Sequence record: OR466728.1
Length of the DNA stretch: 48,315 nt
Reading direction: 5' to 3' (one strand)
Origin: Escherichia phage ES
The translations under genes and the position numbers were made by a program. This document shows positions 1 through 48,160 of this stretch, piece after piece. How positions within the stretch are numbered: the stretch's first letter is position 1; every line of letters begins with the position of its first letter. Below the pieces are notes generated by a model. The model ran no database searches. It was not told the DNA's origin and worked only from the letters and a program-made list of their open reading frames with translations.

Positions 1-211
1 GATTAATGGGTCGTAGTTGCAAAAGTTGCACTCAAGAATTTATCGCGTCGGTTACTGCTAAGTCCTCAGAGGAAGCAGTAGCGAAAGTTAAGGTAATGTC
101 TGGTGCCGACCCGGATTACCACAAATTCCTAGTAGCTTACGTTCGTGAGCGAAAGTAAAAGAAGTTCTACTCTCTGTTTGTTTCATATCTCTCGTTGTTG
201 TTCGATACTTC

Positions 212-235
212 GCCCTCTTCTTGAGGGCTTTTTTT
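212..235 (+). terminator. rho-independent terminator
   Basis: 6-bp GC stem GCCCTC/GAGGGC, 5-nt loop, followed by 7 T. Confidence 0.55.
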
Positions 236-246
236 CGTTTGCTATA

Positions 247-255
247 TGATATAAT
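247..255 (+). promoter_or_regulatory. extended -10 promoter element (TGaTATAAT) upstream of packaging genes
   Basis: TG-n-TATAAT about 28 nt upstream of the small-terminase RBS; no clear -35. Confidence 0.35.
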
Positions 256-282
256 GCATCTCTAAACAAAGGAGGTAACAAA

Positions 283-807
283 ATGAAAGACGAAAACTTC
301 ACCAGTCAGGCGCAGGAAAAGGTCAGCTCTGGCAACTTTAAAGCCATGTACAATAAAAAGTACTCAGACATTACAACGCTAGCCAAAAACCGAAGCATGA
401 CACCCGAACAGCTATTTGAATTCGCCGTGAAATACTTCTCATGGGCTGAGGACCAGGCAATCAAGGCAATCGAGACAGCCAGCTTCCAGGGTGTGGTAAA
501 AGAGAGCCTGGTGCACAAACCACGAGTCTTCACGCTAACCGGATTCTGCCTTTACTGCGGCGTCACCCATAGCGCCATCGAGAAATGGAGGAAGTCGGCT
601 GGTTACGATGAGGTGATGGCATTCATTGATTCCGTGATTCGCGAGCAAAAGTACCAGTTAGCAGCGTCCGGCATCATTAACCCTGGCATGATTTCTAAAG
701 AGCTCGGTATCGACAAGCCGCAGGAGATTAACATCACCAGCACATCTTCAGCCAACGACGTCGATACGATGAAAGAGGCGCTCGAATCGGTTATTAGCAA
801 GTTGTAG
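283..807 (+). CDS. terminase small subunit (putative)
   Basis: 174-aa ORF, RBS AAAGGAGG 7 nt upstream, immediately upstream of large terminase; function inferred from position. Confidence 0.5.
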   Translation: MKDENFTSQAQEKVSSGNFKAMYNKKYSDITTLAKNRSMTPEQLFEFAVKYFSWAEDQAIKAIETASFQGVVKESLVHKPRVFTLTGFCLYCGVTHSAIEKWRKSAGYDEVMAFIDSVIREQKYQLAASGIINPGMISKELGIDKPQEINITSTSSANDVDTMKEALESVISKL

Positions 808-822
808 CACTTTTTGTTAAAA
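805..822 (+). promoter_or_regulatory. dyad box copy 1 (TAGCACTTTTTGTTAAAA)
   Basis: TAG is the stop codon of 283-807; GATAAT about 22 nt downstream; ATG of 875 is 70 nt downstream. Confidence 0.5.
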
Positions 823-874
823 ATAGCGAACCAATCAGTGGGATAATGGGTCACTAAATAAACAAGGAGAATAT

Positions 875-1351
875 ATGGATTGGGGTGATTTCTTCTATCT
901 TAGTGATGATTCCGTTTCTGGTATAAAGTGGAAGGTTAATAAGGGTCGGTCAATGGCTGGTGACGACGCTTTAACATCTGTTGGTAATGGATATTACAAA
1001 GGCAGACTCAACCAGAAGACAACGTACGCCCACAGGGTCGTTTACTTTCTTAACTATGGCGTAATCCCTGATGTTATAGATCATATGGATGGTAATGGGC
1101 TTAACAACTCAATAGAAAACCTAAGGGATGGCACCACAGCCAAGAATATGCAAAACAAGCTATGTAAGGGTTACAGCTACAATAAGAGGGATGACGTTTA
1201 TTATGCTCAGGTAACTACAAATGGGGTGACTAAACATGTAGGTTCTTTTGCAAGCAAGGAATTGGCTATTGCTGCTTACCTAAAGGAGAAGGAATTGCAG
1301 CATGATTTCTATAACAAAGAGAGGAAGATATGCTTGTTTGGGAAAGTATGA
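875..1351 (+). CDS. HNH homing endonuclease with AP2-like DNA-binding domain
   Basis: HNH signature YAHRVVY...IDHMDGNGLNN...NLR, then AP2-like C-terminal segment; RBS AAGGAG. Confidence 0.7.
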   Translation: MDWGDFFYLSDDSVSGIKWKVNKGRSMAGDDALTSVGNGYYKGRLNQKTTYAHRVVYFLNYGVIPDVIDHMDGNGLNNSIENLRDGTTAKNMQNKLCKGYSYNKRDDVYYAQVTTNGVTKHVGSFASKELAIAAYLKEKELQHDFYNKERKICLFGKV

Positions 1352-2892
1352 GCCAGCAGGAAAAGCTGGCTGTAAAACTTATATCAGAGAATAGTTTTGA
1401 GGGATTTTTAAGGTGCTGGTTTTCCATTACTCAGGGTGAGAGATACATCCCTAACTGGCACCACAAGTATCTTTGCAGAATCATCGATGAGATTATCGCA
1501 GGTGAGCGTAAGGACACAATCATCAACATAGCACCCGGGAGTGGGAAGACAGAGATAGCATCAATTCACTTCCCAGCCTACTCCATGGTTAAGTTGAAGA
1601 AGGTAAGGAACCTTAACATCTCGTTTGCCGACTCACTTGTTAAGCGTAACTCTAAGCGAGTGCGTGACCTGATTAAGTCGGTTGAGTTCCAGGAGTTGTG
1701 GCCCTGCAAGTTTGGCACATGTAAGGATGATGAGCTACAGATTCTGGATGAGTCTGGTAAGGTTCGGTTTGAGTCAATATCTAAGGCTGCTGGAGGCCAA
1801 ATAACCGGCGCAAGGGGTGGATATATAACGGATTCATATAGCGGAGCGGTTCTGTTAGATGATTTTGACAAACCAGCCGACATGCTTTCTGCTGTTTTTC
1901 GCGCTAACAATCACGTGATGCTAAAGAATACAATACGCTCTCGTAGGGCGAGCTCCGTAAAAGGAAAGGCGACGCCGATTATCTCTATCCAACAGCGCCT
2001 TCATGTGAATGATAGTACGTGGTTCATGATGAATGGCGGTATGGGTATTAGCTTCGACTTGATTAAGATACCGGCGCTCGTAACTGAGGATTACGTCGAA
2101 ACGCTTCCTGACTGGATTAAGCAGCAATTCATTGATGACGTTCTATCAAGCGAATATATTGAGCGTGATGGTGTTAGGTACTATAGCTATTTCCCTGGCA
2201 AGGAATCTGTTCACGACCTAGTTGCAATGTGGGATTCTGATAGCTATACATTCCTTAGCCAGTATCAGCAAGAACCAGTAGCACTTGGCGGCAACCTGAT
2301 TAACGTAGACTGGCTTCAACGCATTAGCGACACTCTGCGACCGCCAGCTAAGTACGATTACAGGTTTATGGTCCTTGATACTGCGATGACAACCAAAAGT
2401 TACAGCGACTTTAGTGTCATGCAGCTATGGGGTTATAAGGATGGGAAGATTTATCTGCTTGACCAGCGGCGCGGTAAATTTGAAGCTCCTGAGCTCGAGG
2501 CTGAGTTATTGAATTTCGAGAAGATGGCTAGGGCATCCAATCAGATAGATGGCATCCTTCGTAAAATCATCATCGAGAAGAAAGCCTCTGGTATTGGCCT
2601 GATTCAATCAGCCGGAAGGGTTATGCGAACGCCTATCGAGCCGTACGTTCCTGATAACGATAAGCTGACTCGCGTAATGAGTGCATTGCCGCAGATTAAA
2701 GCTGGTAACGTAATCCTTCCGGAGTCTGCTACTTGGCTTAATGGCTTGCTAACGGAGATTGCGGCATTCACGGCAGATGATTCACATGTTCACGATGACC
2801 AGATAGACTGTTTGACAATGGCTGTCAACCTGGTACTGAACATTGCAGAAGACCCTAAATCGAGGATGATGCGCCTCGCTGGCATCAAATAG
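1330..2892 (+). CDS. terL: terminase large subunit
   Basis: 520 aa; P-loop IAPGSGKT near N-terminus, acidic C-terminal nuclease-like half; start may be ATG 1348. Confidence 0.75.
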   Translation: MLVWESMSQQEKLAVKLISENSFEGFLRCWFSITQGERYIPNWHHKYLCRIIDEIIAGERKDTIINIAPGSGKTEIASIHFPAYSMVKLKKVRNLNISFADSLVKRNSKRVRDLIKSVEFQELWPCKFGTCKDDELQILDESGKVRFESISKAAGGQITGARGGYITDSYSGAVLLDDFDKPADMLSAVFRANNHVMLKNTIRSRRASSVKGKATPIISIQQRLHVNDSTWFMMNGGMGISFDLIKIPALVTEDYVETLPDWIKQQFIDDVLSSEYIERDGVRYYSYFPGKESVHDLVAMWDSDSYTFLSQYQQEPVALGGNLINVDWLQRISDTLRPPAKYDYRFMVLDTAMTTKSYSDFSVMQLWGYKDGKIYLLDQRRGKFEAPELEAELLNFEKMARASNQIDGILRKIIIEKKASGIGLIQSAGRVMRTPIEPYVPDNDKLTRVMSALPQIKAGNVILPESATWLNGLLTEIAAFTADDSHVHDDQIDCLTMAVNLVLNIAEDPKSRMMRLAGIK

Positions 2893-2907
2893 CACGTTTT
2901 GCTAAAG
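2890..2907 (+). promoter_or_regulatory. dyad box copy 2 (TAGCACGTTTTGCTAAAG)
   Basis: TAG is the terL stop; TATAGT about 22-23 nt downstream; ATG of 2962 is 72 nt downstream. Confidence 0.5.
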
Positions 2908-2961
2908 ACGCGCCGCCAAGGATGGCTTATAGTTACTTCACGCAAACGAGAGGAGTAAAAA

Positions 2962-3315
2962 ATGAAAGCAGTATTTAAAGGGTATAAAAAAGCTGGTTAT
3001 TTTGATTTTACCGTTGGTAAGATTTATGACTTATCAAGAACGCCTGGAAGTAATAATGAATACGTCAAAGTTAAGGATGATAAAGGCTATTTGGGCGTAA
3101 TTAATCTTAGTGTTTATGATTTCGAAGTTATAGAGCCTACCGATTTTGTCGTTAAAGGTGATAATTTTAAAGTTGAAAAGGCTGGGATTAAATACTTCAT
3201 CAACAAAGACATAGTAACTAAAGAGGCATTTTATGAAGTCAGAAGGGAGGTTCGCCAGTTAACACTTAATGGAGTGAAAACATCATCAATCAAGTTCGAA
3301 GTAAAATTCGAGTAA
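2962..3315 (+). CDS. hypothetical Lys-rich protein (AT-rich insertion)
   Basis: 117-aa ORF, RBS GAGAGGAG, AT-rich codon usage unlike flanking genes, own promoter box and terminator. Confidence 0.5.
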   Translation: MKAVFKGYKKAGYFDFTVGKIYDLSRTPGSNNEYVKVKDDKGYLGVINLSVYDFEVIEPTDFVVKGDNFKVEKAGIKYFINKDIVTKEAFYEVRREVRQLTLNGVKTSSIKFEVKFE

Positions 3316-3338
3316 CCATAAAAGCTATGCTAAACTAA

Positions 3339-3358
3339 GCCCCTAAATGGGGCTTTTT
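3339..3358 (+). terminator. rho-independent terminator
   Basis: GCCCC/GGGGC stem, TAAAT loop, 5 T. Confidence 0.55.
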
Positions 3359-3373
3359 ATTGGAGCAAATAAA

Positions 3374-4645
3374 ATGGTAAAAGCAGATTCATACGCCACG
3401 CAATTTCTTGGTGGCTCCAGTGATGGTAGCGAGATTTACGGGCACTTTGGCAACACGTATCTTACACCTCCTTTCGCTGATTCACTGTACGCATCAAACT
3501 CAATTGTACGCCGCATCGTCGACACCATACCGGAGACAGCAATCGCCGCAGGTTTCCATATCGATGGTATTGATAACGAAGGTGAATTCTGGTCCAGGTG
3601 GGATTACCTGAAGGTTAACGAGTCAATCTCTGACGCATGGTCATGGGCGAGGTTATTTGGCGGCTCTGCAATTGTGGCTATCGTTAAGGACAATCGTGCG
3701 CTAACTAGCCCGGTACGTGAAGGCGCGGAACTTGAATCACTTCGCGTTTATGAGCGTAGCCAGGTAAGAGTTCAGACTAAGGAGGAAAACCCTCGCAATG
3801 TGCGATTCGGTAAGCCATTAACGTATCGCATCACGCCAGAAGGTGGCGCCATGTTTTATGATGTGCACTACTCGCGAGTTCACATTATTGATGGCGAGAA
3901 GATTCCTAGTTCATTGCGTCGCGGTAATGACGGGTGGGGTGCTAGCGTTCTGGTTCCTGACCTGCTTGAATCAATCAAGGATTATCAGACGTGTGAGAAA
4001 CTGGCAACTCAGTTATTGCGCCGCAAGCAGCAGGCGGTGTGGAAGGCTAAAGGCCTTGCTGAACTGTGTGACGACGCGGAAGGTTTTGGTGCGGCGAGGT
4101 TGAGGCTTGCCCAGGTTGATGATAACTCTGGCGTTGGTCGCGCGATTGGTATCGACGCTGAAGCTGAAGAGTACAGCGTTCTTAACTCGGATATTGGTGG
4201 GATTGATGGATTCCTCGATAAGAAGTTCGACAGAATTGTTGCTCTGAGCGGTATCCATGAAATCATTCTCAAAGGTCGTAACGTTGGCGGGTTGTCATCA
4301 AGCCAGAATACAGCGCTAGAGACTTTCCACAAGCTAATCGACCGCAAGCGCAATGAGGAGTTACTTCCAGTGCTTGGTTTCTTAATCCCATTCATCACAA
4401 CCGAGCAGGAATGGTCAGTTGAGTTTAACCCTCTAGCTCAGGAATCGAAAAAGGACCGAGCTGAAATACTGAAGAATAACGTTGATTCAATAGCCGCCCT
4501 CATCACTAACGGCGTAATGGATGCTGATGAAGCACGAGATACCTTGCGCGCATTAGCCCCAGAGGTTAAGATTGGTGAGGGTTCGATTGCAAATGAGCAG
4601 CCCGCTCAGGAAGAATCACCAAAAGAGGAGCCTGCAATTGAATAA
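3374..4645 (+). CDS. portal protein (putative)
   Basis: 423 aa from ATG 3374 (RBS GGAG); large ORF directly after terL; call rests on gene order and size. Confidence 0.55.
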   Translation: MVKADSYATQFLGGSSDGSEIYGHFGNTYLTPPFADSLYASNSIVRRIVDTIPETAIAAGFHIDGIDNEGEFWSRWDYLKVNESISDAWSWARLFGGSAIVAIVKDNRALTSPVREGAELESLRVYERSQVRVQTKEENPRNVRFGKPLTYRITPEGGAMFYDVHYSRVHIIDGEKIPSSLRRGNDGWGASVLVPDLLESIKDYQTCEKLATQLLRRKQQAVWKAKGLAELCDDAEGFGAARLRLAQVDDNSGVGRAIGIDAEAEEYSVLNSDIGGIDGFLDKKFDRIVALSGIHEIILKGRNVGGLSSSQNTALETFHKLIDRKRNEELLPVLGFLIPFITTEQEWSVEFNPLAQESKKDRAEILKNNVDSIAALITNGVMDADEARDTLRALAPEVKIGEGSIANEQPAQEESPKEEPAIE

Positions 4646-24487: not shown

Positions 24488-24968
24488 TTGATAAATTTAA
24501 TGATATCTTTAGATATGATGGTGAAAAGCTGTACTATAAAAACTGGGTAAACGGTAGAAGTAAGTCTCTTGGACTAGAGGCTGGTAGCAAACAGAATGGT
24601 TACTTGAAAGTTACAATTGGCGGCAGAAATTATAAAGTTCATAGAATTATATGGGAAATGGTTAATGGTGAAATACCTGATGGAATGGAATAGATCACAT
24701 AAATCACGTAAAGGATGATAATAGGATTGAGAATCTAAGGCTGGTAACTCACAAGGAAAACTCAAGAAATAGGAAAAAGAGGTCAGATAACTCTTCAGCA
24801 ACACAGGGCGTTTCTCTGCATAAGATTACAAGGAAGTGGCAATCTTATTGCTCTGATAATGATGGAAAAATTATGTACCTTGGATTATTTGAGGATATTA
24901 ATGATGCTATTGATGCTAGGGTTAAGTTCGCCTCACAATGTGACTTCCATGAGAATCATGGTAAATAG
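24484..24968 (+). pseudogene. HNH endonuclease, frameshifted (1-nt deficit near 24689-24691)
   Basis: N-part VHRIIWEMVNGEIPDGME in frame 1 and C-part IDHINHVKDDNRIENLRLVTHKENSRN in frame 0; paralogue of intact 41210-41707. Confidence 0.6.
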
Positions 24969-29801: not shown

Positions 29802-30275
29802 TTACTCTTTAGCTTTTCGTGCTGCTTCGTTAGCGGCCTTAATCTTGCGCCATGATCGACACTCTGGCTTGGTGGCTAGCTCTGCTTCAGTAACTACGCG
29901 AAGCATATGACGCTTCTTACATCGAAGTGTTAGCGGCTTACCGTTTCCGTCGAATTGCAGGTCTGGTCGGCAGAACGTAGCTCGAAATCCTTCCTTATTT
30001 CTCTTATACGCATTGTGAGCTTTCTGCGCTCCTCGAGCCGAAATCATCCCGCGATCAAACCATTGCTCTACAGTCTGGTGAGATACGTTTAACTGCTTTG
30101 CGATGTTCGCCTTTGTTCCATAGAAATCAAGAACCATCTCCAGGCGAGCACGTAGCCCAGCCTTTACCTCATCTTTCAATACGTAGTAGCCTGACGGTCG
30201 TTTGCGTTGCTTCTTGTCTTGTGTGCGTACCGTTCCGTTATTGCCGTTAATAGTTCGTTTGTCAATTTCACACAT
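29802..30275 (-). CDS. HTH DNA-binding protein (candidate transcription regulator)
   Basis: 157 aa, basic, HTH-like GTKANIAKQLNVSHQTVEQWFDRG; RBS GAGG; a dyad box overlaps its 5' region. Confidence 0.5.
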   Translation of the reverse strand: MCEIDKRTINGNNGTVRTQDKKQRKRPSGYYVLKDEVKAGLRARLEMVLDFYGTKANIAKQLNVSHQTVEQWFDRGMISARGAQKAHNAYKRNKEGFRATFCRPDLQFDGNGKPLTLRCKKRHMLRVVTEAELATKPECRSWRKIKAANEAARKAKE

Positions 30276-30288
30276 CTCATTACCTCAA

Positions 30289-30306
30289 TAGCACTTTTTG
30301 TTAAAC
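30289..30306 (+). promoter_or_regulatory. dyad box copy 7 (TAGCACTTTTTGTTAAAC) in divergent region
   Basis: TATTAT about 21-22 nt downstream; helicase ATG 83 nt downstream; 14 nt from the ATG of the divergent HTH gene. Confidence 0.5.
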
Positions 30307-30371
30307 AATAGGTTCGATAATTGATATTATACAGCAATGCAACGAACTAACAAACTGTCAGGATACTTAAA

Positions 30372-33300: not shown

Positions 33301-33506
33301 ATCGTGTTTGTTCTGTCAAATGGAAGGCGTTTTGCTCAACTCACATCGAGAACAGGACTGAGGCTTTTAGGATTGGCAGATTGCGTAATGCTAAAATGAT
33401 TATGACAAATGCACATCTTTTCCGTGCGCCGCTAAGGATTACGCACCGCAAGAATCAGAAGTCGCAAGATATTATCGCCAACAAATCATTTACGATGGAG
33501 GATTGA
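30372..33506 (+). CDS. SF2 DExH-box DNA helicase, interrupted by an intein (exteins 30372-30815 and 31956-33506)
   Basis: Walker A SVSAGKT; motif II DE|CH restored on excision; three track ORFs (30372, 31010, 31797) belong to one gene. Confidence 0.75.
30816..31955 (+). mobile_element. intein with LAGLIDADG homing-endonuclease domain (1140 nt, 380 codons)
   Basis: starts CLTGDTMI, block B TSTHKL, LAGLIDADG-like ILAAMAGDGCL and AAYFGDDGHC, ends NFIADGVVAHN before +1 Cys; endonuclease domain is in a different frame. Confidence 0.8.
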
Positions 33507-33507
33507 T

Positions 33508-33927
33508 ATGAAAATCACAGACAAAGGTGATTACCTCGAGTTCTATGGCGGACCGGTGAAGTCATGCCCAAAGGAAGACGATGAACAAATCTTCTGCTCT
33601 GATTGGGTGAAATACAACTATCCGCAGATTGTTTACTGGCACACGATTAACGAAAATAAAAAGAGCATTGGTCAAGCAATAAAAGACCAAGCCAAGGGGC
33701 TTCTCAAAGGTGTGTCAGACTGCTTATTTCTGATACCTGAGTCATTGCGTGGCGGTTATCCATTTGGCGCCATAGAGTTAAAGAGGGCTGGTAAAACGCA
33801 AGCAAGCCCAGTTAGCAATGAGCAAAAGTCATTCCTAAAAAGCGTAAGGGAATCAGGCGGTTTCGCAGCGGTGGCTTATGGAAGAGAGGGTTTTCTTGCG
33901 GCATTCGCAGAGATGATAAGAAAATAG
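33508..33927 (+). CDS. VRR-NUC-like nuclease (putative)
   Basis: 139 aa; ...D...IELKRAGK... PD-(D/E)XK-like core; RBS GGAGG. Confidence 0.45.
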   Translation: MKITDKGDYLEFYGGPVKSCPKEDDEQIFCSDWVKYNYPQIVYWHTINENKKSIGQAIKDQAKGLLKGVSDCLFLIPESLRGGYPFGAIELKRAGKTQASPVSNEQKSFLKSVRESGGFAAVAYGREGFLAAFAEMIRK

Positions 33928-36732: not shown

Positions 36733-37206
36733 ATGATTTACGTGTTTGATATTGATGGAACTGTTGCTAACAATGAACATAGAAGCCACCTCTTACCATC
36801 TAGTGACCTTCACTTGACTTCAAGTTGGAGTGATTACAATAGAGCCTGTTCTGGAGATTCACCGATAATCCCAATGATAAACATGATGAATGCGTTAGCT
36901 GAGTTATCGCCAGTTTACATCATGACTTCAAGAAGTGACGAAGTCGAATGTATGACGCTTGAATGGCTTCAGTATAATAATATTAATTATGATGGAATAT
37001 ATATGAGGAGTAGATTGGATAACAGAAATGACTATATCATTAAAGAGATGTGGCTAAATGATTTGTGTAATGGTGACAAAGCAAGTGTGATAATCTTTGA
37101 GGATAATCCTAATGTTATCAGTCACCTAAGGAATTGCGGATATACTGTAATGTCAGTTTGTGAATATAAAGAATTACCAAAAGACTGCGAATCTCACGGA
37201 GAATAA
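36733..37206 (+). CDS. HAD-superfamily phosphatase (polynucleotide 3'-phosphatase-like)
   Basis: motif I VFDIDGTV at N-terminus; 157 aa; RBS GAGGAG. Confidence 0.55.
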   Translation: MIYVFDIDGTVANNEHRSHLLPSSDLHLTSSWSDYNRACSGDSPIIPMINMMNALAELSPVYIMTSRSDEVECMTLEWLQYNNINYDGIYMRSRLDNRNDYIIKEMWLNDLCNGDKASVIIFEDNPNVISHLRNCGYTVMSVCEYKELPKDCESHGE

Positions 37207-39555: not shown

Positions 39556-41139
39556 TTACCCCAGCAATCGTGGATTAATGTAAATTTTATCACCAATCAG
39601 GCATGTGTAGTTTTTCTCATCAAGCATAGGAATCAAGTGGTCCTTAATGCGAGTCATAATTCCAGCCTGAGCTTCAAAAGGTTTAACCTTGCGTGCAGCC
39701 TCATACAACGAGCGAACACCAACAACACCTTTACCATTCTTGCCCTGCTTAATCAGGATATCAACCAGCTTGTTCATCTCGGCATTGTCACCAGCATGAC
39801 CAGCAGCACTAGCTGATGACAAATACGTCTTGCTTAGCTCGTTGAAAATCATAACTGCCTCCTGCATTGTCTCCAGTTCAATCTCTCTGGACTTCTGCGG
39901 GCTAGAGCCAGTTTGTGAGGACCAGTTACGAATAACGTGAAGTACGGAAGCGATGCGGATTGCTTGCTTATCAAACTTACCAAGAGCACCGCGCAACATT
40001 GTGTGAGAATACTTGCCACCATCACCAAGATGAGGCTCCATCTCCTGACGTGCTCGGTTAAGGTAACGCATTGATGATGCGCTTACTGTTAGCTTAACCT
40101 CTACTTCATTCATAATCTCATGAACAAGACGGAAGTAGTCCGCTTTCAGGCCGCCATCAATAGCCTCGTATGTTGAATCACCATTAGCATCAACAAATAC
40201 GCGGTCGCCAAGGAATGACTTTTCGCGCACCAGAAGGAAACGCTCAGATACACCAATACCACGCGCACCAGCATTCATAATGGCATTGATTGTTTCATCC
40301 TGAGCAATTACGGAGATGCATCCCATAGCCACAAAGCTCATGTTATTTTCTGCGTTCGCACGGGCAATTGACACATTACCTGCATCCCATGCTTTCAGCA
40401 CGAGCTCGCTGTTCGTTTTCTTAGAGCCATCACCATATGTCATACCCAACAATGAGTTGACGCTAGTTGCCTCATCCGAGATTACCGAGAAGTTACCCTG
40501 GCGGTTGTTGATTCGCGCAAGGCCTTCTGGTGTAGTATCGGAGACAGGGAATACGATATCGCACAGCTTCTCAAGTTTTTCCTCCAGGTCTTCTTTATCT
40601 TCAAACAATGAAGCCATTTCAGAAGGTGATTTCTCCTGCTTCATCTCTTTAGCCAGGGCGGACAGTTTAGCCATAATCTTTTTTCGATCACGTTTACGTA
40701 CTTCATTCAACCGCTCAGTCTCAGCAATCATTGGCGCGATTGCCAGTGAGTTAATGGCTGACTTACCAGTTGAAGGAGGCTGGCTCGTCACGACATAAAG
40801 AGATGTCGGCTGCTGGGTTCCGTGATACTCAACAGTGAAGCGCCCAAGCATTGCAGCGGACACGCAGCCCAGAAAGTGCATATAAGCAGATGACTCAGGG
40901 AACTGAACTGAGCGAGCGATGTTGGCTGACAGCTTGCCAACAATATCAATGTCATTACCGAGTGAGATTACTGGATATTTGTAATTCCCAGCATCAATCT
41001 CGACAGGTGCTTTCCAGAATGATTGAGACTGGCGATAACCATTTGCATTAATTGCTACGCGAAGTGGTGGAAGGTTGTCTGTAGCTGCAATTGCCATAAC
41101 TTGTTCAACAGATAGTTTATCTTCGTTGAAATCAAACAT
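39556..41139 (-). CDS. P-loop ATPase, replication-associated (putative)
   Basis: 527 aa; Walker-A-like VTSQPPSTGKSA; own promoter box upstream. Confidence 0.35.
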   Translation of the reverse strand: MFDFNEDKLSVEQVMAIAATDNLPPLRVAINANGYRQSQSFWKAPVEIDAGNYKYPVISLGNDIDIVGKLSANIARSVQFPESSAYMHFLGCVSAAMLGRFTVEYHGTQQPTSLYVVTSQPPSTGKSAINSLAIAPMIAETERLNEVRKRDRKKIMAKLSALAKEMKQEKSPSEMASLFEDKEDLEEKLEKLCDIVFPVSDTTPEGLARINNRQGNFSVISDEATSVNSLLGMTYGDGSKKTNSELVLKAWDAGNVSIARANAENNMSFVAMGCISVIAQDETINAIMNAGARGIGVSERFLLVREKSFLGDRVFVDANGDSTYEAIDGGLKADYFRLVHEIMNEVEVKLTVSASSMRYLNRARQEMEPHLGDGGKYSHTMLRGALGKFDKQAIRIASVLHVIRNWSSQTGSSPQKSREIELETMQEAVMIFNELSKTYLSSASAAGHAGDNAEMNKLVDILIKQGKNGKGVVGVRSLYEAARKVKPFEAQAGIMTRIKDHLIPMLDEKNYTCLIGDKIYINPRLLG

Positions 41140-42530: not shown

Positions 42531-42716
42531 TTACCAGGGTAAACATTCGTCGCAGCCGAGGCCATCGCAGCACAGATAATAATCTTCTGACTGGAATTGC
42601 TTAGCCAGGTCGATATCGATGCGTCCGCGTAAAACCATATCAGTATAGTCACTGTTCAATCCAATCAGCGCACATTCCTGCTTTAATTGCTCAAATGCTT
42701 CGTCTTTAAGTTTCAT
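42531..42716 (-). CDS. hypothetical Cys-rich small protein
   Basis: 61 aa with CCDGLGCDEC near C-terminus; RBS GAGGAGAGGG. Confidence 0.45.
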   Translation of the reverse strand: MKLKDEAFEQLKQECALIGLNSDYTDMVLRGRIDIDLAKQFQSEDYYLCCDGLGCDECLPW

Positions 42717-42769
42717 ATCCCTCTCCTCGTTGTTGATGGATTCATTATGGCCTCGTCGCCAGTTTTTGT

Positions 42770-42787
42770 CATTAGCAAAAAGTGCTA
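42770..42787 (-). promoter_or_regulatory. dyad box copy 14 (minus strand TAGCACTTTTTGCTAATG)
   Basis: perfect TAGCA-N5-TGCTA dyad; CATAAT about 22-23 nt downstream on minus; 54 nt upstream of ATG 42716. Confidence 0.5.
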
Positions 42788-42807
42788 TTCGTTGGATTTA
42801 TCTATTG

Positions 42808-42899
42808 TTGCAGCTATTGCAATGATTATCATGATTATTGCACATATAGCAATATTGCATGGAATGCAATGATGTTTTTGATTGTTGCAGAATTTGCAA
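42808..42899. promoter_or_regulatory. array of four TTGCA-N5-TGCAA palindromic sites (operator- or iteron-like)
   Basis: sites at 42808-42822, 42838-42852 (imperfect), 42855-42869, 42885-42899; spacings 30/17/30 nt. Confidence 0.55.
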
Positions 42900-43028
42900 T
42901 GATTGATGTGGGGTGAATGAATAGTGGATGAACTACCATACAAGTTGATTTTGATTCTTGCTGAGCCAATTTGGATATACACGTTATCGAAGTTATGGTG
43001 TGTATATGAGGTGCGCTTCCGAAGAATC

Positions 43029-43121
43029 ATACACGCCTACCACGCGAGATTACGCAATGGTTACATAATAATATCTATATATATCAACCTTTTACTATAT
43101 TATTATTATTATTATATATAT
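43029..43121. repeat. control-region repeat block 1 (copy B) with (TAT)n microsatellite
   Basis: matches 22911-23000. Confidence 0.6.
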
Positions 43122-43255
43122 GTATGTATATGGTGTAGATTGGTCGTATGGATGGGTCGATAGTTTTTCTATGAAAACTACTAATTTTATCTATATAGAT
43201 ACATATGCATACCCCCGGCGAATCCGCGTAAAATCTTACACAGGGTAATTACACC

Positions 43256-43308
43256 AGCTATAGCTGGGCTGAGAGGTCAAAAAGCGTAACCAATGCAGAT
43301 ATAAACAC
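43256..43308. repeat. control-region repeat block 2 (copy B)
   Basis: matches 23144-23197 (AGCTATAGCTGGGCT...GCGTAACCAAT). Confidence 0.6.
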
Positions 43309-43388
43309 AACATAACACTTGATAACGCGTATATTCATGATACCATGGTTTCATCTTAACGAAGAGCAACCAATCAGGAGTAACGAAT

Positions 43389-43910
43389 ATGTCAGAACAT
43401 AAAGAAGCAGTAAGTTTGGGTGAAATCATTCGATACATGGCGAGTCAGGCGCTCAAGTCAGAAGACAAAGTGTGCACAGTCCCTGTGACCATGATTGCTC
43501 GTCAATACTTCGGCATGAGTCGTGAGACGTTCGTATCGCTAAGTGGTGAGGAGGTTCTACCTGGTGGTGAATACCACATGCCAAAACTAAAAGCGTCATA
43601 CGTTTCAAACACCGTAAGCCGAATGCCTGAGATTAAGGCGGCTGACGTGCGCTCAAGGTTCTCACTTAGTTTTACCGACTTTGAGGGCGAGAGTGAGACA
43701 TACTGCGCATCACTTAGCCTGGTTCCTGGCGCTGTAAAATCCGGCTCAAGAAGCAAAGCAGAGCAAGAGAAGGAGGCGGCTACCATTGAAAGGTTCAAGG
43801 CTCGATTGTTGAAACTATCACCAAGCGTCGCTGGTCTTGAAGGTGATGAACTTAAGGGTGCAGTATCAATGATTAACGCATACCAGGAAATGATTAAGGA
43901 GACTAAATAG
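43389..43910 (+). CDS. hypothetical protein (first gene of early region)
   Basis: 173-aa ORF, RBS CAGGAG. Confidence 0.5.
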   Translation: MSEHKEAVSLGEIIRYMASQALKSEDKVCTVPVTMIARQYFGMSRETFVSLSGEEVLPGGEYHMPKLKASYVSNTVSRMPEIKAADVRSRFSLSFTDFEGESETYCASLSLVPGAVKSGSRSKAEQEKEAATIERFKARLLKLSPSVAGLEGDELKGAVSMINAYQEMIKETK

Positions 43911-44523: not shown

Positions 44524-44541
44524 TAGCACAAATTGTTAAAC
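44524..44541 (+). promoter_or_regulatory. dyad box copy 16 (TAGCACAAATTGTTAAAC)
   Basis: starts 2 nt after the TGA of 44337-44522; TATAGT 22 nt downstream; ATG of 44599 is 75 nt downstream. Confidence 0.5.
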
Positions 44542-47782: not shown

Positions 47783-47995
47783 ATGAAAAAAGTAACAATC
47801 ATCGTAAAAGATATTGAAAGCGGCACTTCCCAAAAATTCAACGCAACACTTGACCGTGAACATAAATGCTTAAAGGGTGTGATTGGCGGGGTTTCAGTTA
47901 GCGCGGATATTAAAGGTTATCTCGAGCTTGAAAGAGAAATTCAAAACTATAGCAATCAGAGCGGGAAGATAAAAAATGCAGCTCTGGGATGTTAA
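47783..47995 (+). CDS. hypothetical protein
   Basis: 70-aa ORF, RBS GGGGGA; last gene before the junction with position 1. Confidence 0.45.
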   Translation: MKKVTIIVKDIESGTSQKFNATLDREHKCLKGVIGGVSVSADIKGYLELEREIQNYSNQSGKIKNAALGC

Positions 47996-48004
47996 GCTTT
48001 CAAT

Positions 48005-48160
48005 CTGCTTCCTCTGAGGACTTAGCAGTAACCGACGCGATAAATTCTTGAGTGCAACTTTTGCAACTACGACCCATTAATCGGATTGAAAGCTTAACAT
48101 CCCAGAGCTGCATTTTTTATCTTCCCGCTCTGATTGCTATAGTTTTGAATTTCTCTTTCA
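48005..48160. other. 156-nt fold-back: reverse complement of the end-to-start junction (probable assembly artefact)
   Basis: 48005-48082 is the exact reverse complement of 1-78; 48083-48160 is the reverse complement of 47929-48004 plus CC. Confidence 0.7.

What the first reader, a model, noticed from the sequence alone, without database searches (positions are those of the whole stretch)
42808..42899. Array of four TTGCA-N5-TGCAA palindromes upstream of a minus-strand promoter
Three perfect and one imperfect 15-bp inverted repeats lie within 92 bp at the edge of the large non-coding region, just upstream (on the minus strand) of box copy 14. The half-site TTGCA differs by one base from the box half-site TAGCA. 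The regular spacing suggests cooperative binding of a dimeric protein, as at an operator cluster or origin iterons.
Basis: seen in the sequence. Interest (0 to 1): 0.7.

Follow-up and report, generated by a model that had tools for sequence, protein, structure and literature searches.

The report
Conserved dyad array beside phage pac site
Four short palindromes in a T1-like coliphage are real, conserved protein-binding sites lying just left of the point where DNA packaging starts, so they are a first candidate for the never-defined packaging signal of this phage family, although a role as transcription operators or a replication origin is not excluded.

Summary
The window is Escherichia phage AN_ECEAS (Drexlerviridae). 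TTGCA-N5-TGCAA dyads sit at 42808, 42838 (one mismatch), 42855 and 42885. The three perfect copies are the only ones in 48 kb.

The array is two tandem 47-bp units, each with two dyads 30 bp apart. It lies in the 672-bp divergent intergenic region, 21 bp from the already described Rtp52-type box (TAGCA-N5-TGCTA) of the leftward promoter.

The array is at the same position in 20 distinct relatives. Half-sites are better conserved (0.945) than the N5 spacers (0.805).

Mapped or annotated genome ends of relatives (MSK, SU57, Rao1, T1, TLS, Rtp) fall inside the array or 30-55 bp to its right, with packaging running rightward.

Phages that share the same box carry other dyads next to it: TTCCA-N7-TGGAA in T1 and AGACC-N4-GGTCT in TLS. 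The box-binding regulator is therefore unlikely to bind the array.

No protein could be assigned. Co-variation tests with TerS, TerL, DUF7174, DUF3987 and the HTH regulator each gave exceptions or, for the HTH regulator and DUF3987, no support.

Best reading, at 0.4: the recognition arm of the pac region. Rivals are an early-promoter operator array (0.3) and a replication origin (0.15). I found no prior description in the papers I could search. Interest is moderate.

The parts
42808..42822 (.). Dyad 1, TTGCAGCTATTGCAA (perfect)
   Evidence: In 20 distinct relatives the left half is TTGCA in 17 and the right half is TGCAA in 18.
42838..42852 (.). Dyad 2, TTGCACATATAGCAA (right half AGCAA)
   Evidence: The 'imperfect' right half AGCAA is invariant in 20 of 20 relatives. 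Position 1 of the Rtp record falls inside this dyad.
42855..42869 (.). Dyad 3, TTGCATGGAATGCAA (perfect here)
   Evidence: The right half is TGCAA in 19 of 20 relatives; the left half varies between TTGCA and TTGCT. T1, L097 and L116 have a counterpart.
42885..42899 (.). Dyad 4, TTGCAGAATTTGCAA (perfect here)
   Evidence: The left half is TTGCG in 17 of 20 relatives and the right half is variable. T1 has a counterpart at its positions 32-46.
42808..42900 (.). Two tandem 47-bp units (42808-42853 and 42855-42900), each [dyad-N15-dyad]
   Evidence: the repeat finder family D1: 72% identity, 47-bp spacing.
42773..42787 (-). Box copy (TAGCA-N5-TGCTA) of the leftward early promoter. This is the known 21-nt Drexlerviridae repeat, the proposed Rtp52 site.
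   Evidence: Described in the TLS paper PMC11447400. The box ends about 22-23 nt before the -10-like CATAAT at 42749-42744.
42900..42910 (+). TGATTGATGTG core, shared with TLS. In TLS it directly precedes position 1 of the genome record.
   Evidence: It is one of six same-strand TGATT copies in 42790-42965, against 0.43 expected.
42928..42954 (+). Inferred zone where headful packaging starts (projected pac cuts); packaging runs towards higher coordinates
   Evidence: Rao1 record end corresponds to 42927|42928. The MSK PhageTerm start (36,862 in MW057918) corresponds to 42935|42936. The SU57 record end corresponds to 42953|42954. This is projected from relatives and was not measured for this phage.
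42946..42964 (+). Fifth, half-dyad-like copy TGATTTTGATTCTTGCTGA; resembles the left part of dyad 4
   Evidence: the repeat finder family D6: 84% identity to 42873-42891. It lies within the conserved block GGACTACCATACAAGTTGATTTTGATTCT.
43060..43210 (.). AT-rich stretch with ATATA-type repeats; perfect IHF consensus at 43082-43094. Candidate unwinding or bending element.
43389..43910 (+). First rightward gene, DUF7174. It was a candidate binder but is largely ruled out.
283..807 (+). Small terminase (P22 gp3 family), candidate reader of the pac region
   Evidence: Pfam GP3_package E = 6e-12; PHROG 606 E = 3e-57.
29802..30275 (-). HTH regulator (homologue of Rtp52 and T1 gp23), probable box binder
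   Evidence: Rtp52 annotation. A box lies at 30289-30303 in its own upstream region.

Best explanation
The four dyads are binding sites for a phage-specified dimeric DNA-binding protein. Together they form the left, non-packaged arm of the pac (packaging-initiation) region. Proposed sequence of events: the protein is either the gp3-family small terminase or an accessory factor that recruits it. It occupies two pairs of dyads, 30 bp apart within a pair and 47 bp between pairs. With the TGATT-rich core (42900-42910) and the half-copy at 42946-42964, this positions the large terminase to make the first cut about 30-55 bp to the right (about 42928-42954). Headfuls are then filled rightward. Shown: the dyads exist, are conserved in position and half-site, occur as a cluster only once in the genome, and adjoin the ends mapped or annotated in relatives. 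Inferred: that a protein binds them, which protein it is, and that binding serves packaging.
For: (1) Genome ends in relatives. MSK PhageTerm reports a pac-type forward start at 36,862, which corresponds to window 42935/6. The SU57 end was chosen from PhageTerm plus a coverage step and corresponds to 42953/4. The Rao1 record end corresponds to 42927/8. T1 record position 1, the start of its annotated 2,800-bp terminal repeat, lies one base before a TTGCA-N5-TGCAA dyad, with a second dyad at position 32. TLS pac was mapped by restriction digestion to the homologous spot, just after ATGATTGATGTGTG. The records of Rtp, Rogue1, XT34 and EC3a also open or close here. (2) Repeat copies flank the cut zone: dyad 4 on the left and a 19-nt half-copy on the right (D6). 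From my own knowledge, this is the layout of the P1 and SPP1 pac sites. (3) The pac-proximal dyad pair (3 and 4) is kept in lineages whose box-proximal dyads differ: T1-like, L097 and L116. (4) The cluster is unique in the genome. (5) The inter-dyad DNA is itself constrained. The 15-bp spacer between dyads 3 and 4 has mean column conservation 0.91, and most of ATGATGTTTTTGATTG, including a T5 tract, is invariant. This fits a shaped nucleoprotein complex better than independent operators. (6) In P818 and CJ19 the block at the cut is T1-like, and P818's TerL is closer to T1's (60%) than to type-A TerL (48-49%). This suggests the block right of the dyads belongs to the packaging machinery.
Against: Dyad symmetry is typical of HTH dimers. 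It is not typical of ring-shaped small terminases, which in known cases read asymmetric or direct-repeat sites (my own knowledge). TerS does not track the dyads cleanly. L097 has two TTGCW dyads and L059 has none, yet their TerS are 73% identical. TerS among type-A phages is only 56-67% identical while their arrays are about 90% identical. TLS-like phages pack from the same place without any TTGCA dyad. The dyads lie on the side of the cut that is not packaged. The ends are projected from relatives, and some record starts may simply copy T1 or Rtp. How position 1 of T1 and Rtp was chosen could not be read, because those papers are not held. The resemblance of GGATTTATCTA (42796-42806) to the P22 pac core fails the published P22 pseudo-pac pattern.
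Confidence: 0.4

Rival explanations
1. The dyads are an operator array for a transcription regulator. A dimeric HTH or winged-helix protein, distinct from the box-binding Rtp52 homologue, binds the four dyads cooperatively. The dyads lie at about -78, -108, -125 and -155 of the box-dependent leftward early promoter, and binding turns that promoter up or down.
For: The 15-bp dyads have conserved half-sites and variable spacers. They start 21 bp from the box of a promoter whose box is centred near -42. The slot next to the box holds a lineage-specific dyad in every lineage examined: TTCCA-N7-TGGAA in T1, AGACC-N4-GGTCT x2 in TLS and TGTCA-N3-TGACA in L097. This is the pattern of regulator/operator pairs that change specificity together.
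Against: No dyad overlaps a conserved -35 or -10. The one promoter-like match inside the array (TTGCTA-16-GATAAT, minus strand) loses its -10 in relatives. Pfam finds no second HTH protein among 30 early and small ORFs. The adjacent DUF7174 protein fails the co-variation test. The DNA between dyads is almost as conserved as the dyads themselves.
Confidence: 0.3
2. The dyads are a replication origin. They are the recognition sites of the phage initiator, most plausibly the DUF3987 P-loop ATPase that relatives' records annotate as a DNA helicase (39556-41139), encoded 1.4 kb away (the gene ends at 41139). Paired inverted sites would load two oppositely oriented complexes next to the AT-rich, IHF-site-bearing stretch at 43060-43210.
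For: This is the largest non-coding region, with repeats, AT-rich DNA and a perfect IHF consensus. The helicase is 89-92% identical among type-A phages, which share the array, and 57% identical to T1. From my own knowledge, superfamily-3 initiator helicases (SV40 T antigen, papillomavirus E1, P4 alpha, SaPI Rep) use short inverted or paired repeats beside AT-rich DNA.
Against: The helicase of TLS is closer to type A (70-73%) than T1's is (57%), yet TLS lacks TTGCA dyads and T1 has them. The AT-rich DNA is about 160 bp away, on the other side of the packaging start. The DnaA-box count is at chance level. GC skew only mirrors the direction of transcription. The helicase has no solved relative by sequence, so an origin-binding domain could not be shown.
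Confidence: 0.15
3. The dyads are sites for a host factor. TTGCA pentamers in inverted or direct order are the half-sites of E. coli CytR, so the array would recruit CytR (with CRP).
For: The published CytR descriptions are TGCAA-N2-3-TTGCA, TTGCAA and GTTGCATT octamers. The invariant junction AGCAA-TA-TTGCA between dyads 2 and 3 fits with one mismatch.
Against: CytR needs flanking CRP sites at physiological levels, and no CRP-like site with up to 3 mismatches lies in 42700-43000. T1 and TLS infect the same host but carry other dyads at the box-proximal position. The orientation and the N5 spacing differ from the preferred CytR arrangement.
Confidence: 0.04

Closest known systems
pac sites with repeats on both sides of the cut (P1 pac with TGATCA/G hexamers; SPP1 pacL-pacC-pacR)
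   Same: A unique locus lies at the start of a headful series. Short repeats sit within about 100 bp on both sides of the cleavage zone. There is a bend-prone T tract and an IHF consensus nearby. Only one side of the cut is packaged.
   Different: Here the repeats are 15-bp dyads rather than hexamers or direct boxes. The TerS is of the P22 gp3 family, whose known site is a single asymmetric 22-bp sequence inside its own gene. This locus is 5.4 kb upstream of terS. Binding was not shown.
Lambda cosB (R3-I1-R2-R1, read by gpNu1 dimers)
   Same: A small-terminase recognition arm made of several copies of a roughly 16-bp element, some in inverted orientation, next to the nicking site, with an IHF site.
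   Different: Lambda is a cos phage and cosB is on the packaged side of the cut. gpNu1 is unrelated to gp3-type TerS. The R elements are not individually palindromic.
Rtp52/T1 gp23 box (21-nt repeat aaATAGCACnnnTTGnTAAAA of TLS, T1 and Rtp)
   Same: The same 5-N5-5 geometry and the same GCA-N5-TGC core, in the same genomes. One box lies 21 bp from the array.
   Different: Position 2 of the half-site is always A in boxes and almost always T in the dyads. Boxes sit 22 nt upstream of a -10 hexamer and are spread over the genome (18 copies here), whereas the dyads have no -10 partner and occur once as a cluster. The box is family-wide, whereas the dyads next to it are lineage-specific.
Lambdoid operator clusters (OR1-3, OL1-3)
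   Same: Several adjacent dyad-symmetric 14-18-bp sites in a divergent control region. Half-sites are conserved and centres are free. Specificity varies by lineage.
   Different: The dyads do not overlap core promoter elements. No cognate repressor gene was identified. The phage is virulent.

Membership tests
Rtp52-type box regulon (21-nt Drexlerviridae repeat) | Half-sites TAGCA / TGCTA (or TGTTA), with A at position 2 | tested here: not met
   In the 18 box matches in the window (up to 1 mismatch), position 2 is A in all but one borderline match (41043, TTGCA). The dyad half-sites are TTGCA / TGCAA, apart from the right half of dyad 2 (AGCAA). Position 2 is T in the dyad left halves of all 20 relatives.
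Rtp52-type box regulon (21-nt Drexlerviridae repeat) | A -10-like hexamer 22 nt downstream of the repeat, in the direction of transcription | tested here: not met
   The ten clearest box promoters have this hexamer at 22 nt. The hexamers 22 nt from each dyad are TATAGC, TTTTTG, ATTTGC and TAGTGG on the plus strand, and GCACTT, AGCTGC, ATGATA and CCATGC on the minus strand.
Rtp52-type box regulon (21-nt Drexlerviridae repeat) | Conserved across the whole family together with the regulator | tested here: not met
   The identical box TAGCAAAAARTGCTATTC is followed by different dyads in T1, TLS, L059, L097 and L116.
Headful pac site | Coincides with the fixed end of the first headful, with unidirectional packaging | tested here: inconclusive
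   This holds for relatives: MSK PhageTerm, SU57, TLS restriction mapping and the T1 terminal-repeat annotation. No read data exist for this phage, and the projected cuts lie 30-55 bp outside the dyads.
Headful pac site | Unique in the genome | tested here: met
   The only perfect dyads, and the only cluster, are at 42808-42899.
Headful pac site | Specifically bound by the small terminase | not testable with these tools
   Co-variation with TerS is ambiguous. The TerS tree groups type A, T1 and L116 (all have dyads). However, L097 (dyads) and L059 (none) share 73% TerS identity.
Repressor/operator cluster | Dyad-symmetric 14-18-bp sites with conserved halves and a free centre, several side by side | tested here: met
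Repressor/operator cluster | Sites overlap the regulated core promoter(s) | tested here: not met
   The leftward -10 is at 42749-42744 and the dyads begin at 42808. No conserved promoter lies inside the array.
Repressor/operator cluster | A cognate DNA-binding protein co-varies with the sites | tested here: not met
   DUF7174: T1 and L102 have 87% identical arrays but only 28% identical protein, and TLS-type DUF7174 is closer to type A yet its phage has no TTGCA dyads. HTH regulator: T1 is closer to TLS (58%) than to the window (54%). No other HTH protein was found.
Iteron-type or initiator-helicase replication origin | Repeated initiator sites next to an AT-rich unwinding element | tested here: inconclusive
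   The repeats are present but inverted. The AT-rich DNA and an IHF site lie 160-300 bp to the right.
Iteron-type or initiator-helicase replication origin | DnaA boxes, or an initiator with a demonstrable origin-binding domain | tested here: not met
CytR operator | TTGCA-type half-sites flanked by CRP sites | tested here: not met
   The half-site motif is present, but no CRP-like site with up to 3 mismatches was found.

The most novel reading that the evidence does not exclude
The dyad array is the sequence that defines pac in T1-like phages. A P22-gp3-family small terminase, or a still unrecognised small partner protein, reads paired palindromes in a dimer-like, lambda-Nu1-style mode. The site is 5 kb from its own gene and abuts an early promoter, so occupancy of the same DNA could couple early-promoter shut-off to the start of packaging. 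This would be the first sequence-level pac definition for Drexlerviridae, and an unusual recognition mode for this TerS family.
Probability: 0.15. Interest if true: 0.65.

Novelty: new member of a known kind. Interest (0 to 1): 0.45.

Why it matters
T1-like phages are notorious laboratory and fermentation contaminants. They are also generalized transducers and candidates for phage therapy. Yet their pac signal, replication origin and early control circuits have never been defined at sequence level. The 2024 TLS re-annotation could only guess 'AGATTT' by analogy with P22.

The present analysis gives a precise, testable map of the control region. From left to right it reads: box, four dyads, TGATT core, cut zone, AT-rich DNA with an IHF site. 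The dyads can be mutated directly in plasmid-transduction, footprinting and reporter assays.

If the dyads are the pac recognition arm, three things follow. Transduction-prone pseudo-pac sites in hosts could be predicted. Non-transducing therapeutic derivatives could be designed. Genome records of this family could be opened at a biologically meaningful position.

Tried and rejected
1. Lambda esp test. From memory (Drexler 1984), T1 starts packaging at a site between lambda P and Q. I scanned lambda for T1-type dyads. Only chance-level matches appeared: 14 of 16 bases in ninG and 13-mers at 33458 and 39898. No dyad pair was found. Inconclusive.

2. Pattern search in IMG/VR. The pattern dyad-N15-dyad matched 82 loci. 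Nearly all are in-frame Ala-rich coding repeats of tail fibres. Only Drexlerviridae share the architecture. Uninformative.

3. P22 pac similarity. GGATTTATCTA at 42796-42806 shares 9 nt with the P22 core. It fails the published pseudo-pac regular expression and is absent from T1. Dropped as evidence.

5. Co-variation of dyad type with TerS, TerL, the HTH regulator, DUF3987 and DUF7174. I used five complete genomes and extra loci. No protein tracked the dyads: TerS, TerL, DUF3987 and DUF7174 each showed a contradicting case, and the HTH regulator simply did not track them.

6. Promoters inside the array. There is one weak minus-strand match, and it is not conserved.

7. Host-factor motifs. DnaA boxes, CRP sites and GATC clusters are all absent or at chance level. 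One perfect IHF consensus lies at 43082.

8. CytR. The motif resembles the dyad half-sites, but the required CRP context is missing.

9. GC skew. It follows the direction of transcription only.

10. Missing sources. The T1 (Roberts 2004) and Rtp (Wietzorrek 2006) papers are not held. I could not verify how their position 1 was chosen. My recollection that the Rtp abstract links Rtp52 to ten inverted repeats is likewise unverified. The Rtp52 annotation in the record agrees with it.

Full report
**Identity and setting.** The window is a rotated copy of Escherichia phage AN_ECEAS (PP944860; Drexlerviridae, Braunvirinae), matching at 99.99-100% identity. The finding lies in the 672-bp non-coding region 42717-43388. 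This region sits between a leftward operon (first gene 42716-42531) and a rightward operon (first gene 43389-43910). It is conserved in at least 129 phage records.

**The observation.**
- Three are perfect TTGCA-N5-TGCAA, and one reads TTGCA-N5-AGCAA.
- Allowing one mismatch gives 14 matches in the window, against 3.9 +/- 2.0 in shuffles (0 of 100 shuffles reach 14).
- The only perfect copies in the window are these three.
- The spacing is 30, 17 and 30 bp, not uniform. The array is a tandem duplication of a 47-bp unit made of two dyads 30 bp apart (D1).
- A fifth, half-dyad-like copy (TGATTTTGATTCTTGCTGA, 42946-42964) resembles the left part of dyad 4 (D6).
- Six TGATT pentamers lie on the plus strand and none on the minus strand in 42790-42965, against 0.43 expected.

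**The neighbouring box is already known.** TAGCA-N5-TGCTA occurs 18 times in the window with up to one mismatch. In the ten clearest promoter copies the box ends exactly 22 nt before a -10-like hexamer. That puts the box centre near -42, the geometry of a class II activator site (inference).
- The 2024 TLS re-annotation describes the box as a 21-nt repeat of unknown function, also present in T1 and Rtp.
- The Rtp record annotates Rtp52 as an HTH transcriptional regulator. From memory, the Rtp paper links Rtp52 to ten such inverted repeats. That paper is not held.
- The homologue here is 29802-30275 on the minus strand. It has a box in its own upstream region.

**Conservation.** Twenty distinct arrays were compared. 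They come from Braunvirinae, Rogunavirinae, Nouzillyvirus and metagenomic relatives. All keep the order box, +35, +65, +82, +112.

| Region | Mean column conservation |
|---|---|
| Box | 0.99 |
| Dyad half-sites | 0.945 |
| N5 spacers | 0.805 |
| Inter-dyad DNA | 0.85-0.91 |

- The 'defect' of dyad 2 (right half AGCAA) is invariant in all 20 arrays.
- The left half of dyad 3 is TTGCA or TTGCT. Dyad 4 is mostly TTGCG...WGMAA.
- So three perfect dyads are a feature of the AN_ECEAS, TR2 and Rao1 lineage only.
- Caveat: the neighbouring DUF3987 gene is also 89-92% identical among these phages. Part of the conservation therefore reflects a young shared module. The contrast between half-sites and spacers is the better argument for selection.

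**Not the box binder.** I fetched every IMG/VR locus carrying the identical 18-nt box. Phages with the same box carry different dyads in the slot next to it:
- T1-like phages have TTCCA-N7-TGGAA, followed by two TTGCA dyads.
- TLS has AGACC-N4-GGTCT twice, followed by TGATT direct repeats and no TTGCA dyad.
- L097 has TGTCA-N3-TGACA, followed by two TTGCW dyads.
- L116 has TTGCT-N5-AGCAA.
- L059 has TTGTCA repeats.

. The box and its regulator are family-wide, whereas the array is lineage-specific. Position 2 is fixed as A in boxes and is almost always T in dyads. A different protein therefore reads the dyads (inference).

**Packaging starts here.**
- T1's record begins G|TTGCATGGTGTGCAA. It annotates positions 1-2800 as the terminal repeat, and a second dyad lies at position 32.
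- TLS pac was mapped by restriction digests. Position 1 of its record follows ATGATTGATGTGTG. The same 11-mer, TGATTGATGTG, lies at 42900-42910 in the window.
- MSK PhageTerm gives a forward pac-type start at 36,862 (P = 1.6e-9), which corresponds to 42935/6.
- The SU57 end, chosen from PhageTerm and a coverage step, corresponds to 42953/4.
- The Rao1 record end corresponds to 42927/8.
- The records of Rtp, Rogue1, XT34 and EC3a also break within or beside the array.

The first cut is therefore most likely 30-55 bp right of dyad 4, and DNA to the right is packaged.

In P818 and CJ19 the block at the cut is T1-like (GGGGGG..GATCT..CGCCTGGTAG). P818's TerL is closer to T1's (60%) than to type-A TerL (48-49%). 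This hints that the block goes with the nuclease subunit.

**Who binds?** Pfam and PHROG find three candidate sequence-specific proteins: TerS (gp3 family, 283-807), the HTH regulator, and the DUF3987 P-loop protein that relatives' records annotate as a DNA helicase. Scans of about 30 small ORFs found no further HTH.

- **DUF7174**, the first rightward gene, holds that position in T1, TLS and most related loci examined (one locus, L054, lacks it).
  - Its AF2 model has pLDDT 78.8, with residues 10-110 above 80.
  - T1 and L102 share 87% identical arrays but only 28% identical DUF7174.
  - TLS-type DUF7174 is nearer to type A, yet its phage has no TTGCA dyads. I therefore drop it as the prime candidate.
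- **TerS.** The tree groups type A, T1 and L116, which all have dyads. However, L097 (dyads) and L059 (none) share 73% TerS identity.
- **DUF3987, the HTH regulator and TerL** also fail to track the dyads.

The binder stays unassigned.

**Weighing the functions.** That a dimeric protein binds these dyads seems very likely to me (about 0.8), from the symmetry and the conservation pattern. The purpose of that binding is less clear.
- **Packaging (0.4).** This has the only experimental anchor: the genome ends in relatives. It also fits the repeats flanking the cut, the single occurrence in the genome, and the retention of the pac-proximal pair across lineages. Against it stand the dyad symmetry, the TLS-like phages that manage without these dyads, and the L097/L059 conflict.
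- **Early-promoter operator array (0.3).** This fits the geometry and the lineage-specific dyad next to the box. It lacks promoter overlap and an identified regulator.
- **Replication origin (0.15).** This fits the repeats, the AT-rich DNA with a perfect IHF site (43082-43094) and the nearby DUF3987 helicase. It has no positive test: DnaA boxes are at chance level, skew is uninformative, and helicase similarity does not track the dyads.
- **Host CytR (0.04).** CytR shares the TTGCA half-site, but the obligatory CRP sites are absent.

**Novelty.** The papers I could search are the TLS 2024, MSK 2021, SU57 2020, KanT1 2026, Niu 2014 and SH6 2017 papers. None describes these dyads. Discussion of pac is limited to 'AGATTT' (TLS) or ATATA repeats (attributed to the Rtp paper). 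The array is therefore a new member of a known kind: a protein-binding repeat array in a phage control/pac region. It is not a new kind of element. Its value is that it makes the long-undefined T1-type pac and early-control region directly testable.

Noticed in passing
window 805, 2890, 11565, 24966, 33925, 34179, 36660, 37747, 44524, 45200 (box copies): Each box ends exactly 22 nt before a -10-like hexamer, so the box centre is near -42. Most of these promoters also carry their own short inverted repeat straddling the -10. Examples: GAGTTG..CAACTC at 33925, GGGGTA..TACCCC at 24966, AGGCCA..TGGCCT at 44524. The purpose of these promoter-specific hairpin-like repeats is unexplained.
   Followed up: partly
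window 29802-30371: The gene for the Rtp52/T1 gp23-type HTH regulator has a box (30289-30303) in the 96-bp gap it shares with the divergent helicase gene. This suggests the regulator controls its own promoter.
   Followed up: no
window 43060-43210 (IHF consensus 43082-43094): An AT-rich stretch with ATATA-type direct and inverted repeats holds a perfect IHF consensus, TATCAACCTTTTA, which is also present in phage MSK. Short TTACRC/GCGTAA repeats flank the stretch. It could be a DNA unwinding or bending element for replication or packaging.
   Followed up: partly
L005 (P818) 1600-1700 and L011 (CJ19), compared with L014 (T1) 47-100: P818 and CJ19 combine type-A dyads with a T1-like block (GGGGGG..GATCT..CGCCTGGTAG) at the presumed cut. 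P818's large terminase is closer to T1's (60%) than to type-A phages (48-49%). This is a fine-scale mosaic suggesting that the cut block co-inherits with TerL.
   Followed up: partly
window 47992-48160 and 1-4435: The last part of the window contains an inverted copy of the preceding ~170 bp, and the window is 234 bp longer than the GenBank record. This looks like a fold-back assembly artefact at the window end, not biology.
   Followed up: partly
loci L038, L055, L063, L115 (other Drexlerviridae): The same 18-nt box also precedes the recE-like exonuclease gene. There it is followed by four TGTTCT repeats and AT-rich DNA, making a second repeat-rich non-coding region in the family. The equivalent region in this window was not examined.
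   Followed up: no
window 43389-43910: DUF7174 is the first rightward gene in T1, TLS and most related loci examined, though one locus (L054) lacks it. It diverges extremely fast: T1 versus this phage gives no BLASTP hit. Its model shows an N-terminal winged-helix-like domain plus a C-terminal helical hairpin. Its function is unknown.
   Followed up: yes
window 42531-42716 (minus strand): The first leftward gene encodes a 61-aa protein ending in a Cys-rich motif (CCDGLGCDEC). It matches PHROG 9053 and has no Pfam match. It is a possible small zinc-binding protein encoded right next to the array.
   Followed up: no
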